A stretch of 22,812 nucleotides of DNA from a virus (taxonomy: Duplodnaviria > Heunggongvirae > Uroviricota > Caudoviricetes), in IMG/VR virus record IMGVR_UViG_2563367158_000003; one strand, given 5' to 3'. Of this stretch, positions 7,921 through 10,492 are shown piece after piece. The position numbers were made by a program, and so were the translations under genes. Position 1 is the stretch's first letter; every line of letters begins with the position of its first letter. The notes under the pieces are model-generated. The model was not told the DNA's origin, searched no databases, and saw nothing but the letters and a program-made list of their open reading frames with translations.

Positions 7921-8014
7921 TTACGCGGGTTAACAATTCGTGCTCTTAATAATACCAGGCATATCAGGCTGATGAACGTAAAAAAACGTTTTACATCAGT
8001 AAGATTATTATATA

Positions 8015-8030
8015 CTGTAAATATAAACAG
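8015..8030 (+). promoter_or_regulatory. LexA (SOS) box CTGTAAATATAAACAG within a promoter-like AT-rich region upstream of the tum-like ORF
   Basis: Matches the CTGT-N8-ACAG LexA consensus exactly, with an AT-rich spacer; lies 44 nt upstream of the ATG at 8074. Phage 186 tum is known to be LexA-controlled. Confidence 0.7.
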
Positions 8031-8073
8031 TGGTTATACATACAGTATTTCTTGTGGTGTCATAGGAGGAAAG

Positions 8074-8262
8074 ATGCAGGACTATTTTTTGGAGTCTTTG
8101 AAGCTCCAGCGCATTGATTTTTTTCTTAAACTTGTAGCGGCTAGTGAGTGTAGTGATGAAGAGAAGGGGCTGGCTTTGCAGTGGGTTTCTGAACTGACAG
8201 ATGAACTCATGGCAAAAATCAGAACCCACGAATACAACCGCTCAATGGATGTCATCAGCTGA
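8074..8262 (+). CDS. Small SOS-operon protein (62 aa), possible N-terminal (antirepressor) part of a Tum-like protein
   Basis: ATG at 8074 with GGAGG upstream, directly downstream of the LexA box; the track's longer ORF from 7972 would include the operator, so the shorter start is preferred. Confidence 0.45.
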   Translation: MQDYFLESLKLQRIDFFLKLVAASECSDEEKGLALQWVSELTDELMAKIRTHEYNRSMDVIS

Positions 8263-8272
8263 GGTGACTTTT

Positions 8273-8506
8273 ATGCGCATTGAAATAATGATCGATAAAG
8301 AGCAGAAGATTAGCCAGTCTACCCTGGACGCCCTTGAATCCGAGCTTTACCGCAATCTGCGCCCCCTATATCCAAAAACGGTAATTCGCATCCGCAAAGG
8401 TAGCTCTAACGGTGTGGAACTGACCGGACTGCAACTGGACGAAGAAAGGAAGCAAGTGATGAAAATTATGCAGAAGGTGTGGGAAGACGACAGCTGGCTG
8501 CATTAA
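8273..8506 (+). CDS. DinI-family protein (77 aa)
   Basis: ATG at 8273 (MRIEIMIDKEQ...); length and sequence pattern resemble DinI (MRIEV...start, acidic C-terminus ending W-x-x-DD-W); second gene of the LexA-boxed operon. Confidence 0.75.
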   Translation: MRIEIMIDKEQKISQSTLDALESELYRNLRPLYPKTVIRIRKGSSNGVELTGLQLDEERKQVMKIMQKVWEDDSWLH

Positions 8507-8628
8507 GAAACGTTGCTGGCGTCTGAACTTGCTTCTGGCGTCAGCAAGGTTGAACAACGAGCTGTGCGAGGCGTTAGTTGATATAGTATCAATATATAAA
8601 AGGTTTCTCGAAGTTTTAAGGTAAGGTT

Positions 8629-9348
8629 ATGACAACTATTAACAAGCATGGGTTATCTAGAACAATTCCTGAACCTGTAAAACTGGAGGTAAGGCAGCGC
8701 TGTGGCTTCGGTTGCGTTGTTTGTGCTTCTCCCATTGTTGAGTATGAGCATGTAATTCCCACATACGCTGATGCAAAGGAGCACTCTCCAAATGCAATAG
8801 CACTACTTTGTCCTACGTGCCATGCGAAAGTAACGAAACGTCTTTACTCTAAAGAGAAAATAATTAAAGCAATGGAATCTCCTGCAGCCTTACAAAAAGG
8901 GAATGTGGCCGATATATTGGACTTTTCTGATAGGCATCCAACAATAATATTTGGTGGTGCGACGTTTGAATCCTGTACTGTACCAATAATGTTTCAAAAT
9001 GAGCCATTGTTAACCATTGAAAAAGAAAATAATGCTTTTCTTATTTCGGGTAAATTTTACGATAGTCAAGGTATTGTTAATCTTGAATTAATTAAGAATG
9101 AGTGGGTTTGTAGTGCAAGGCATTGGGATGTTCAGGTTGTCGGTCCTAGAATAACTATTATAGAAAAAAGGAAAGGTCCTCGTTTAATTATTAAAGTTGA
9201 TGCGCCTGAAAGATTGATTGTGGAAAGATTAGATATGTTGGTTAAGGGGACTCGGATCGTAGGAGACGAACACAAGCTAAGAGTAGGTCCACATCAATTT
9301 CACAACTGTGGAGTTTCAAATTGCAATATTGGTTTCTGCTTTGGCTAA
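8629..9348 (+). CDS. HNH-nuclease-domain protein (239 aa): N-terminal HNH motif plus a roughly 170 aa C-terminal domain of unknown function; AT-rich cargo gene
   Basis: HNH signature read from the translation: CGFGCVVC ... EYEHVIP ... N-AIALLCPTCH. Good RBS (AAGGTAAGG) before the ATG at 8629. Region visibly AT-rich compared with flanking phage genes. Confidence 0.7.
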   Translation: MTTINKHGLSRTIPEPVKLEVRQRCGFGCVVCASPIVEYEHVIPTYADAKEHSPNAIALLCPTCHAKVTKRLYSKEKIIKAMESPAALQKGNVADILDFSDRHPTIIFGGATFESCTVPIMFQNEPLLTIEKENNAFLISGKFYDSQGIVNLELIKNEWVCSARHWDVQVVGPRITIIEKRKGPRLIIKVDAPERLIVERLDMLVKGTRIVGDEHKLRVGPHQFHNCGVSNCNIGFCFG

Positions 9349-9461
9349 CTGGAGGTTGGAAAAAGACCATTTCCTATAAGCTGAGTATTTCGTACATTTT
9401 TGCCAACGCATGTCTATGCCGCATGAAATCGCATGATCGTTTGAGGATCGTTTTTGCTGAT

Positions 9462-9489
9462 GCCCGCCAGAGCTGGCGGGCTTTTGCTT
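9462..9489 (+). terminator. Rho-independent terminator: GCCCGCCAG-ag-CTGGCGGGC followed by TTTTGCTT
   Basis: Perfect 9 bp GC-rich stem with 2 nt loop and a T-rich tail, about 110 nt downstream of the HNH gene stop. Confidence 0.55.
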
Positions 9490-9530
9490 ATGTCATGCAG
9501 GTGCATGAAAACCACTACACAAAGCGGGCA

Positions 9531-9549
9531 GGCGTGGCGGGGATACGAG
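9531..9549. other. Putative cos site (cohesive-end sequence) GGCGTGGCGGGGATACGAG
   Basis: First 13 nt identical to the 19 nt cohesive end of phage 186 as I remember it (GGCGTGGCGGGGAAAGCAT), and close to P2 (GGCGAGGCGGGGAAAGCAC); lies between the replication genes and the portal gene, where cos sits in P2-like genomes. Depends on recalled sequences, not a lookup. Confidence 0.4.
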
Positions 9550-9726
9550 CGCGCGCAACGAGGTGAAATAGCAAAACTCAGCACAGCCTACGGCCCGCTA
9601 GCGGCTTCAAATTGAAATGGTGAGGTGCAGCAGCAAAAAAACCGCCCCACAGGAAGTTGTTGAGGTTGTTTATTGAGGGAATTGGCTTAAGCGGTAAAAC
9701 ACAAATATTGCAACTTGTGCATGAAA

Positions 9727-9756
9727 TTGATACATTGTGCGTAATGTGTCTATATT
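9727..9756 (+). promoter_or_regulatory. Candidate sigma70 promoter: -35 TTGATA (9727-9732), 18 nt spacer, -10 TATATT (9751-9756)
   Basis: Hexamers read directly from the sequence; located 13 nt upstream of the ATG at 9769, so the transcript would be nearly leaderless or the true start lies further in. Confidence 0.4.
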
Positions 9757-9768
9757 GCGGGGTGTTTT

Positions 9769-10440
9769 ATGGCTTTCAGAGCGGAAGAAGCAGCAGCATC
9801 GAATTTCGAAAATGCTTACAGATATCTAGTTCCACAAGGTTCAAATCAGGAGATGCGTTCGAAAGTTAGGGCGAAGCTCAAAGAAATTGTTGAAGAATGT
9901 GGGCCAGTAGTGGATGGGTATCCAGCATGGCATCCTTTTTTGCTGGAAAGAGATAAAGCTATTTGGGCGCCTATGACTCCCAATAATACTCCTAGCTTTA
10001 AATACCTGGACCACACGGTCTATTTCAGGAACGGCATTCTTACCTGTCCTTATGGTCATGGGGTTGATGAATTTATAGCTGGTATAAAACGTCTAAAGCA
10101 CACGGATGCCCATTTCTCTATTGAGAAGATTGATGACGTTGTGCTTTATAATGACAACGCCGTCCCGTTGTTAATAAAATGCCATTGGCTTATTTCGGAA
10201 GATATGGAAGAGGATGGCACCATTCCAGCAAAAGCAGCAATTGGATTGATGCTTGAAAGCGAGGTTCCTAACTGGCGGCATGCAGTTTATTGTGAAAATT
10301 GGGAAGATATGCGCGGGCAGTTGATGGGATATCCGCACGGTGCCAGATCATCTCTATTTGTTAATCAGCAGACAGGACAGAAAATGAAAAACTTCTGGAA
10401 TCAGCTGATTAAGACCGGAATTCTTGGGGAAGAGCGATAA
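9769..10440 (+). CDS. Hypothetical protein (223 aa), AT-rich orphan cargo gene between cos and the portal gene
   Basis: Intact ORF convergent with Q; no recognisable motif. An alternative in-frame ATG at 9853 exists. Composition visibly AT-richer than the neighbouring structural genes. Confidence 0.55.
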   Translation: MAFRAEEAAASNFENAYRYLVPQGSNQEMRSKVRAKLKEIVEECGPVVDGYPAWHPFLLERDKAIWAPMTPNNTPSFKYLDHTVYFRNGILTCPYGHGVDEFIAGIKRLKHTDAHFSIEKIDDVVLYNDNAVPLLIKCHWLISEDMEEDGTIPAKAAIGLMLESEVPNWRHAVYCENWEDMRGQLMGYPHGARSSLFVNQQTGQKMKNFWNQLIKTGILGEER

Positions 10441-10454
10441 TTTCTTGAGGCTTA

Positions 10455-10488
10455 GCTGCGCCTTTAACAAGCAGAGGCGCTGCTTTTT
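10455..10488 (+). terminator. Stem-loop followed by a T5 run, candidate terminator for the 223 aa gene
   Basis: GCtGCGCCT ... AGGCGCtGC inverted repeat (one mismatch) with an 11 nt loop and TTTTT tail, between the 223 aa gene stop and the Q stop. Confidence 0.45.
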
Positions 10489-10492
10489 AAAT

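What the first reader, a model, noticed from the sequence alone, without database searches (positions are those of the whole stretch)
7921..10492. The replication-to-portal interval is a composite cargo hotspot spanning cos
Between the end of gene A (7920) and the Q stop (10493) lie, in order: a LexA-boxed SOS operon, an HNH-domain gene, a strong terminator, a cos-like sequence and a second orphan gene. Two unrelated AT-rich cargo genes therefore flank the packaging site, one at each end of the linear virion genome. The two are separated by a terminator and a promoter, so they are probably independent rather than one two-gene system, though a functional pairing cannot be excluded.
Basis: inference. 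Interest (0 to 1): 0.6.

Follow-up and report, generated by a model that had tools for sequence, protein, structure and literature searches.

The report
Known P2-phage cargo hotspot around cos
The stretch between the replication gene and the portal gene of this P2/186-like prophage is the already published variable "defence hotspot" next to the DNA-packaging site, here carrying two independent, catalogued but untested single-gene cassettes, one on each side of that site.

Summary
Every element is present at or near the stated coordinates: a LexA-boxed SOS operon, an HNH gene, a terminator hairpin, a cos site (cut at 9531) and a 223-aa orphan gene.

This is the gpA–gpQ cos-proximal hotspot of P2-like phages (Rousset 2022, PMC9122126). 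That paper's Table S5B lists both cargo proteins, sequence-identical, as separate single-gene systems: #159 "HNH, likely a nuclease" and #47, which has no domain. The paper does not report testing either.

Comparison with 57 related prophages and 5,426 E. coli genomes gave these results:
- The SOS operon (7921–8580) and a 158-bp cos core (9405–9562) are conserved backbone.
- Two AT-rich cassettes (8581–9404 and 9563–10492) sit in two slots that swap independently. No pair of loci shares cargo in both slots.
- The HNH cassette occurs with at least eight other neighbours or an empty slot. orf223 relatives occur with at least six other partners.
- The papers I read do not mention that the cos→Q slot is the more often filled (41 of 51 loci). 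They also do not mention that its cargo almost always points towards Q (59 of 62 families).

Both proteins gave high-confidence structure models. orf223 matches no solved or viral structure. Function is inferred as anti-phage or competition cargo and is untested.

The parts
5506..7920 (+). Replication endonuclease gene A; left anchor of the hotspot.
   Evidence: 804-aa ORF. Near-identical E. coli copies are annotated 'replication endonuclease' and carry PF05840 Phage_GPA.
7990..8032 (+). SOS promoter. -35 TTTACA at 7990-7995; -10 TACTGT at 8013-8018, inside a LexA box at 8013-8032.
   Evidence: The only CTGT-N8-ACAG in the window. Same layout as the annotated p95/LexA site of phage 186. 85-88% conserved across loci.
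8074..8262 (+). 62-aa ORF related to the N-terminal part of the 186 Tum antirepressor.
   Evidence: phrog_698, E=4e-38. hhalign of the family against Tum residues 1-75 gives probability 88% over 41 collinear columns. Present in most related loci.
8273..8506 (+). DinI-like ORF, corresponding to the C-terminal half of 186 Tum.
   Evidence: PF06183, E=7e-23. 41% identical to Tum residues 71-145, E=1e-24.
8509..8580 (+). Conserved hairpin without a U-tract, plus the GGTTGAACAACGAGC...GCGAGGCGTTAG element. It marks the end of the conserved left flank.
   Evidence: Predicted fold about -29.6 kcal/mol. Identity 0.65-0.93 up to 8580, then 0.24. The same element lies after orf97 in phage 186.
8581..9404 (+). 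Slot-1 cassette carrying the HNH gene (8629-9348).
   Evidence: GC 0.377. Sharp conservation boundaries. At least 99.3% identical in 21 E. coli genomes. AF2 model pLDDT 95.4, with an N-terminal HNH and a C-terminal all-beta domain.
9405..9562 (.). Conserved cos core. It contains the terminator hairpin 9462-9481 and the 19-nt cohesive-end sequence 9531-9549.
   Evidence: Identity 0.6-1.0 inside the core and about 0.2 on both sides, in 56 loci. Aligns with the cos junctions of P2 and 186.
9563..10492 (+). Slot-2 cassette. It holds a spacer remnant (9563-9665), a promoter-like site (9727-9756), orf223 (9769-10440) and a hairpin (10458-10480).
   Evidence: GC 0.435. At least 99.4% identical in 24 E. 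coli genomes. The empty-slot relative L001 matches only up to 9665 and resumes at 10533. AF2 model pLDDT 92.5, with no structural match.
10493..11545 (-). Portal gene Q; right anchor. Its last ~13 codons vary together with the slot-2 cassette.
   Evidence: 350-aa ORF. Relatives carry PF04860. Conservation is low in the 3' end of Q.

Best explanation
This is the cos-proximal accessory-gene hotspot that P2/186-like (Peduoviridae) prophages carry between replication gene A and portal gene Q.

Anatomy (shown).
- The backbone has three conserved pieces. The first is a LexA-controlled SOS operon encoding a Tum-like antirepressor split into two ORFs. The second is a ~70-bp hairpin element. The third is a 158-bp cos core.
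- These pieces bracket two variable slots.
- Slot 1 lies between the hairpin element and the cos core. Here it holds an HNH nuclease with a C-terminal all-beta domain.
- Slot 2 lies between the cos core and the 3' end of Q. Here it holds a 223-aa protein with no detectable relatives of known fold.
- Because cos is the cut site, slot 1 ends up at the right end of the virion DNA and slot 2 at the left end.

How cassettes move (inferred).
- Cassettes are exchanged between related phages by homologous recombination in the conserved flanks.
- The cos core acts as a shared pivot, so the two slots swap independently.
- The window itself looks like a recombinant with a crossover in the cos region. One parent is an HNH-type prophage and the other a KAP-NTPase/orf223-type prophage.

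Function (inferred, not shown).
- Both genes are probably stand-alone anti-phage or inter-element competition genes expressed from the prophage.
- The HNH protein would cut DNA, with the beta domain acting as sensor or regulator.
- It may be read through from the SOS promoter, because I found no convincing promoter of its own and the intervening hairpin lacks a U-tract.
- orf223 probably has its own promoter. A conserved His/His/Cys cluster suggests a metal site or an enzyme.
For: Architecture.
- cos was identified by alignment to the annotated P2 and 186 termini.
- Conservation profiles show sharp boundaries at 8580/8581, about 9405 and about 9562.

Variability.
- Slot lengths, slot GC and 90 cargo families were measured in 57 species-level relatives.
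- Known defence proteins occur in both slots of relatives. Slot 2 has PDC-M11A, bSEFIR, AbiLi, AriA, Old, PD-T4-9 and TIR. Slot 1 has PD-Lambda-5_B and methyltransferases.

Independence.
- No pair of loci shares cargo families in both slots.
- The identical HNH protein is seen with an empty slot 2, and with AIPR, a dsDNA nuclease, a 554-aa protein, PIN_12, a three-gene set or a TIR-like protein.
- orf223 orthologues sit in the same cos-to-Q slot in Enterobacter, Klebsiella and Serratia, with five other slot-1 contents.

Recombinant origin.
- Window 7921-9665 is 98-99.6% identical to HNH-type prophages.
- Window 9408-10699 is 98.5% identical to a KAP/orf223-type prophage.
- By contrast, Q is only 85% identical to the Q of the HNH-type prophages.

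Proteins.
- Both families are widespread single genes on prophages, plasmids and genomic islands.

Literature.
- The hotspot is described in PMC9122126.
- Both proteins are listed there as separate single-gene systems.
Against: - Nobody has tested either gene for phage resistance as far as the held papers show. Neither protein matches any PADLOC 2023 defence model.
- About a quarter of P2 hotspots in E. coli carry non-defence cargo such as partition systems, so location alone does not prove defence.
- The exact orf223 allele is accompanied by a KAP NTPase in all 24 complete E. coli genomes that have it. Its independence therefore rests on the window itself and on 63-80% identical orthologues.
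- The SOS read-through into HNH and the orf223 promoter are sequence-based guesses.
Confidence: 0.8

Rival explanations
1. The HNH gene and orf223 form one two-component system whose parts sit on either side of cos.
For: They are adjacent in the prophage and in circular replicating DNA. The exact orf223 allele shows tight linkage across cos to another slot-1 gene, a KAP NTPase, in E. coli. Cross-cos linkage therefore does occur.
Against: None of the 5,426 complete E. coli genomes holds both cassettes. The identical HNH protein occurs with at least seven other slot-2 states, including an empty slot. orf223 orthologues occur with five other slot-1 contents. Homologues of each protein elsewhere lack the other. 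Rousset's Table S5B curates them as separate systems.
Confidence: 0.03
2. The HNH protein is a packaging accessory that helps terminase cut cos, as in HK97-type phages where an HNH gene lies next to the terminase and portal genes. The HK97 comparison is from my own knowledge.
For: The gene lies about 180 bp upstream of cos and close to the portal and terminase genes.
Against: Only 21 E. coli genomes have it, out of about 1,260 that carry this SOS-operon/cos backbone. P2 and 186 package without it. Its GC3 of 0.29 marks it as foreign. Homologues sit in a lambdoid prophage after the O/P genes and on Acinetobacter plasmids, away from any terminase.
Confidence: 0.03
3. The HNH gene is a selfish free-standing homing endonuclease. 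It cuts HNH-less relatives near cos and is copied in by repair, with no benefit to phage or host.
For: It is a small stand-alone HNH gene between conserved genes. The cassette is at least 99.3% identical across backbones that differ by 2-15%. The family is found on several kinds of mobile element.
Against: The same slot holds dozens of unrelated families that need no homing. Pfam found none of the DNA-binding modules typical of homing HNH enzymes; the C-terminal half is an all-beta domain. The orf223 and KAP cassettes are just as well conserved, so high cassette identity is a property of the hotspot and not of HNH.
Confidence: 0.12
4. One or both cargo genes serve the phage in another way, such as counter-defence, superinfection exclusion of relatives or host-fitness conversion, rather than acting as classical anti-phage immunity.
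For: No defence-model hit for either protein. Phage 186 orf97, in the same general region, is annotated as blocking 186 infection when expressed from a plasmid. Non-defence cargo is frequent in this hotspot. orf223 lies right at a virion DNA end with a likely promoter of its own.
Against: Most identifiable neighbours in both slots are defence-type proteins. [quoted passage not shown]
Confidence: 0.2

Closest known systems
P2-like phage gpA-gpQ cos-proximal hotspot (Rousset et al. 2022, PMC9122126; the old/tin locus of P2)
   Same: The flanking genes (A and Q) are the same. The adjacency to cos, the extreme gene turnover, the AT-rich cargo and the frequent presence of more than one system per locus also match. 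Both cargo proteins of the window are listed there, sequence-identical, as systems #47 and #159.
   Different: [quoted passage not shown] Here it resolves into two slots on either side of a 158-bp conserved cos core. The slots assort independently, and slot 2 has a strong orientation rule. In P2 and 186 themselves slot 2 is empty, with cos-to-Q distances of 187 and 196 bp. This exact HNH + orf223 combination was not found in 5,426 complete E. coli genomes.
SOS operon of coliphage 186 (p95-LexA box-tum-t95a-orf97-t95b-cos)
   Same: The LexA box overlaps the -10. A Tum-related coding region follows, then an accessory gene before cos on the same strand.
   Different: Tum is split into a 62-aa ORF and a DinI-like ORF. 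The accessory gene is an HNH protein unrelated to Orf97. It sits on the other side of a conserved hairpin element from where orf97 sits. 186 has no gene between cos and its portal gene.
HNH effector domains of defence nucleases (CBASS Cap5, McrA-type restriction enzymes)

Membership tests
P2-like gpA-gpQ cos-proximal hotspot | The locus lies between the replication endonuclease gene A and the portal gene Q of a P2-like prophage. | tested here: met
   ORFs 5506-7920 and 10493-11545. Near-identical copies carry PF05840 and PF04860. Terminase, scaffold and capsid genes follow.
P2-like gpA-gpQ cos-proximal hotspot | The locus contains or abuts the cos packaging site. | tested here: met
   The 19-nt cohesive-end sequence at 9531-9549 and its upstream region align with the annotated P2 and 186 termini. 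It is 94-100% conserved in 56 loci.
P2-like gpA-gpQ cos-proximal hotspot | Gene content differs between otherwise related phages and has a foreign base composition. | tested here: met
   90 cargo families in 51 loci. Slot GC is 0.32-0.47 against 0.52-0.60 for the backbone. About 1,260 E. coli genomes share the flanks but only 21 and 24 share each cassette.
P2-like gpA-gpQ cos-proximal hotspot | The cargo confers resistance to other phages. | not testable with these tools
   Known defence proteins occur in the slots of relatives. The two genes of this window have no defence-model hit, and I found no published test of either.
186-type LexA-controlled tum operon | A LexA box overlaps the promoter upstream of the operon. 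| tested here: met
   TACTGTAAATATAAACAGTG at 8013-8032 overlaps the -10, as annotated for 186 p95. The motif alone is expected 0.34 times per window by chance.
186-type LexA-controlled tum operon | The operon encodes Tum as one polypeptide, with an antirepressor N-terminus and a DinI-like C-terminus. | tested here: not met
   There are two separate ORFs. The DinI-like ORF matches Tum residues 71-145 (E=1e-24). The 62-aa family matches Tum residues 4-44 (hhalign probability 88%). It is therefore a split relative, not a 186-type Tum.
HNH endonucleases (PF01844) | HNH beta-beta-alpha-metal motif with a catalytic histidine and zinc-binding cysteines. | tested here: met
HNH endonucleases (PF01844) | Metal-dependent nuclease activity. 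| not testable with these tools
   This needs purified protein.
Terminase-associated HNH (HK97 gp74 type) | Present in essentially all phages of the lineage, next to the terminase, and needed for cos cleavage. | tested here: not met
   Present in only 21 E. coli genomes, out of about 1,260 that carry this backbone. Absent from P2 and 186.

The most novel reading that the evidence does not exclude
The 'single' P2 hotspot may really be two mechanistically distinct cassette sites, one at each terminus of the virion DNA, pivoting on the 158-bp cos core.

- The cos-to-Q site is the main one in this lineage. It accepts cargo almost only in the orientation convergent with the late Q-P operon.
- One possible reason is that late transcription then silences the cargo by antisense during the phage's own lytic growth. 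Another is that capture happens at a DNA end with fixed polarity.
- Within that site, orf223 would be a new-fold, single-protein immunity gene.
Probability: 0.3. Interest if true: 0.5.

Novelty: already known. Interest (0 to 1): 0.27.

Why it matters
As a discovery it matters little. The hotspot, its link to cos and both cargo proteins are already in the literature.

Three leads remain useful:
- **Untested candidates.** Both are well-conserved single-gene candidates with confident structure models. One is an HNH nuclease with an unknown beta domain. The other is a 223-aa protein with no structural relative and a conserved His/His/Cys cluster.
- **A refinement for hotspot surveys.** The locus is two independently swapping slots, not one. 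Arrangements that span cos should therefore not be curated as single systems. For example, KAP NTPase + orf223 is tightly linked in E. coli but is separated in this window.
- **An unexplained orientation rule.** In the cos→Q slot 59 of 62 cargo families point towards Q. This is a concrete regularity that could bear on how cassettes are captured or regulated.

Tried and rejected
- **HNH protein versus 186 Orf97.** BLASTP gave no similarity, so the HNH gene is not an orf97 homologue.
- **PADLOC, NCBIfam and PHROGs on both cargo proteins.** PADLOC gave only noise-level hits for HNH (E about 0.01). orf223 gave nothing. phrog_6544, which matches HNH, has unknown function.
- **Sequence search of solved structures.** Nothing for orf223, and only HNH-motif matches for the nuclease.
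- **Naming the hairpins after 186.** I first took the 9462-9481 hairpin for the 186 terminator t95b and the post-DinI hairpin for t95a. Direct comparison showed both assignments were wrong. t95a and t95b are different sequences. The 9462 palindrome is part of the cos core, and 186 has it without a T-run. The post-DinI hairpin element lies after orf97 in 186.
- **Literature search on orf97/tum.** It returned nothing relevant.
- **Searching the two protein accessions in paper texts.** No hits in main texts. They were found only in Rousset's supplementary tables.
- **An own promoter for the HNH gene.** The scan found none on the + strand between 8560 and 8630.
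Full report
**What the window is.** The window is a P2/186-like (Peduoviridae) prophage. From left to right it carries:
- an integrase (1064–2077, minus strand) and a CI repressor (2084–2719, minus strand);
- a CII/CP76 regulator (3105–3611) and a Dam-type methyltransferase (4652–5506);
- replication gene A (5506–7920);
- the interval in question;
- on the minus strand, portal gene Q (10493–11545) and terminase gene P (11542–13308), followed by late genes.

**Checking the observation.** All five elements exist where stated.
- **SOS promoter.** The sequence TACTGTAAATATAAACAGTG (8013–8032) is the only CTGT-N8-ACAG in the window. 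Its first six bases form a -10, placed 17 nt after TTTACA (7990–7995). Phage 186 has the same arrangement annotated for promoter p95 and its LexA site. The bare motif is expected 0.34 times by chance. The support therefore comes from its position and from 85–88% conservation in relatives.
- **Operon genes.** A 62-aa ORF (8074–8262; phrog_698) and a DinI-like ORF (8273–8506; PF06183, E=7e-23) follow. The DinI-like ORF is 41% identical to the C-terminal half of 186 Tum (E=1e-24). A profile of the 62-aa family aligns collinearly with Tum residues 4–44 (hhalign probability 88%). The operon therefore encodes a Tum relative split into two ORFs.
- **HNH gene.** The gene at 8629–9348 passes the Pfam threshold.
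- **Terminator.** The hairpin at 9462–9481 has eight pairs, seven of them G-C, and a T-rich tail.
- **cos.** The 19 nt at 9531–9549 (GGCGTGGCGGGGATACGAG) share their first 13 bases with the annotated cohesive end of 186. The upstream ~120 nt align with the P2 and 186 junctions.
- **Orphan gene.** The 223-aa ORF at 9769–10440 has no hit in Pfam, PADLOC, PHROGs or NCBIfam.
- **Composition.** GC3 is 0.29 for HNH and 0.40 for orf223, against 0.57, 0.64 and 0.70 for A, Q and P.

**Core versus cargo.** I fetched 80 loci encoding relatives of the portal protein, one genome per species. In 57 of them I located A, cos and Q. Conservation profiles anchored on the window give sharp boundaries.
- The left flank is conserved up to 8580 and drops to background at 8581.
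- A 158-bp island (9405–9562) around the cut site is 60–100% conserved, with about 20% identity on both sides.
- On the right, the last ~13 codons of Q are themselves poorly conserved.

The interval therefore consists of:
- backbone (SOS operon, a ~70-bp hairpin element and the cos core, which includes the terminator hairpin);
- a slot-1 cassette at 8581–9404 (GC 0.377);
- a slot-2 cassette at 9563–10492 (GC 0.435).

In a relative with an empty slot 2 (L001), similarity runs to 9665 and resumes at 10533. The actual insert thus lies between about 9666 and the 3' end of Q. It has displaced the ancestral Q terminator.

**Is it a hotspot?** Yes.
- A-to-cos length ranges 432–4379 bp and cos-to-Q length 167–3518 bp. 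Slot GC is 0.32–0.47 against 0.52–0.60 in Q/P.
- Among 51 loci with all landmarks, slot 1 holds a gene of at least 110 aa in 30. Slot 2 does in 41, both slots in 22 and neither in 2.
- There are 33 cargo families in slot 1 and 57 in slot 2, and only three occur in both.
- Known defence proteins occur in both slots. Slot 2 has PDC-M11A, PDC-S49, bSEFIR, AbiLi, AriA, Old, PD-T4-9, PD-T7-4 and TIR. Slot 1 has PD-Lambda-5_B and methyltransferases.
- In 5,426 complete E. coli genomes, 1,260 share the SOS operon and cos core. None covers 80% of the interval.

**Are the two cargo genes independent?** The evidence says yes.
- 16 pairs of loci share a slot-1 family and 23 share a slot-2 family. No pair shares both.
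- The HNH cassette is in 21 complete E. coli genomes and the orf223 cassette in 24, each at 99.3% identity or more, with no overlap.
- The identical HNH protein is found next to an empty slot 2. It is also found next to AIPR, a dsDNA nuclease set, a 554-aa protein, PIN_12, a three-gene set or a TIR-like protein.
- There is one complication. The exact orf223 allele is accompanied by the same KAP-family NTPase in slot 1 in all 24 E. coli genomes and in every long contig read.
- Against that, orthologues at 63–80% identity sit in the same cos-to-Q slot in Enterobacter, Klebsiella and Serratia with five other slot-1 contents. The window itself also replaces the NTPase by HNH.
- More distant homologues (40–48% identity) are single genes in unrelated islands, for example in Marinobacter.
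- HNH homologues occur in a lambdoid prophage and on Acinetobacter plasmids.

**How the window's combination probably arose.**
- Window 7921–9665 is 98–99.6% identical to HNH-type E. coli prophages.
- Window 9408–10699 is 98.5% identical to a KAP/orf223-type prophage.
- The Q gene of the HNH-type prophages is only 85% identical to the window's Q.
- The two similarity tracts overlap only in the cos region. A single crossover there explains the arrangement. This is inference from identity tracts, not a formal recombination test.

**An unreported regularity.** In slot 2, 85 of 89 ORFs of at least 110 aa read from cos towards Q, that is, convergent with Q. This corresponds to 59 of 62 families (binomial p=1.7e-14). 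Slot 1 shows no bias, with 19 families against 14. I have no tested explanation. Two ideas are antisense silencing of cargo by late-operon read-through and a polarity in cassette capture at a DNA end. Both are speculation.

**The proteins.**

**Expression (inferred).**
- The scan found no promoter-like site upstream of HNH on its strand. The hairpin between DinI and HNH lacks a U-tract. HNH may therefore be the distal gene of the LexA-controlled transcript, as orf97 is in 186 according to that record's annotation.
- orf223 has the best promoter-like match of the region (9727–9756, 10 of 12 positions). That site would leave almost no leader, so the true start is uncertain.

**Comparison with what is known.**
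- Rousset et al. 2022 (PMC9122126) described exactly this locus: the cos-proximal region between gpA and gpQ of P2-like phages. They found 1,650 arrangements in E. coli, often more than one system per locus. They speculated that cohesive ends promote exchange.
- Their Table S5A contains both protein accessions in several combinations.
- Their Table S5B lists both proteins, sequence-identical to the window's, as separate single-gene systems. These are #47 (no domain, 82 occurrences) and #159 (HNH, 11 occurrences, 'Likely a nuclease'). The text does not list either among the systems they cloned.
- What this analysis adds is resolution of the hotspot into two independently assorting slots around a conserved cos core. 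It also adds the predominance and orientation rule of the cos-to-Q slot, and the likely recombinant origin of this combination.

**Rivals considered.**
- **A cross-cos two-gene system.** Contradicted by the assortment data.
- **A packaging role for HNH.** Contradicted by its rarity and foreign composition.
- **A selfish homing endonuclease.** Cannot be excluded, but it is not needed. The neighbouring non-HNH cassettes are just as well conserved.
- **A non-defence role,** such as exclusion of relatives or counter-defence. This remains open.

**Verdict.** Novelty is low: the hotspot and both cargo proteins are already published. Interest is modest. It rests on two untested single-gene candidates and on the slot-2 orientation rule.

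Noticed in passing
window 4-1098 (- strand): A 365-aa ORF in a 32% GC stretch lies at the left end of the window, next to the integrase gene (1064-2077). It has no Pfam or PADLOC hit. It looks like cargo at the integrase-att site, which the 2026 P2/P4 paper lists as a minor hotspot.
   Followed up: partly
window 9563-10492 and the cos-to-Q slot of loci L008-L079: Cargo in the cos-to-Q slot almost always reads from cos towards Q, in 59 of 62 families (p=1.7e-14). The A-to-cos slot shows no bias. The papers I read give no explanation.
   Followed up: partly
window 8509-8580; L004 3846-3913 (phage 186 record 30345-30412): A conserved hairpin plus the GGTTGAACAACGAGC...GCGAGGCGTTAG element lies before the HNH cassette in the window but after orf97 in phage 186. 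Slot 1 therefore has at least two insertion points separated by this element, whose function is unknown.
   Followed up: partly
window 10493-10532 (3' end of Q): The last ~13 codons of the portal gene are poorly conserved and change together with the slot-2 cassette. The right-hand recombination boundary therefore lies inside Q.
   Followed up: partly
L002, L094, L095, L120-L124 (E. coli prophages): The exact orf223 allele is accompanied by the same KAP-family P-loop NTPase on the other side of cos. This holds in all 24 complete E. coli genomes that have the allele. Four further genomes have the NTPase without orf223. This is either one successful prophage lineage or a functional link. The window breaks the pairing.
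   Followed up: partly
L059 (JAEYLX010000057.1, labelled Bacillota MAG): This 4.5-kb contig carries DinI, cos, orf223 and portal sequence that is 99-100% identical to enterobacterial P2-like prophages. It is probably mis-binned or a contaminant.
   Followed up: no
window 4652-5506 (within the 4592-5509 ORF): A Dam-type orphan adenine methyltransferase (PF02086; PADLOC oMTase, E=1e-111) sits directly upstream of gene A and overlaps it by 4 nt. Phage 186 has a different gene, orf84, at this position.
   Followed up: no
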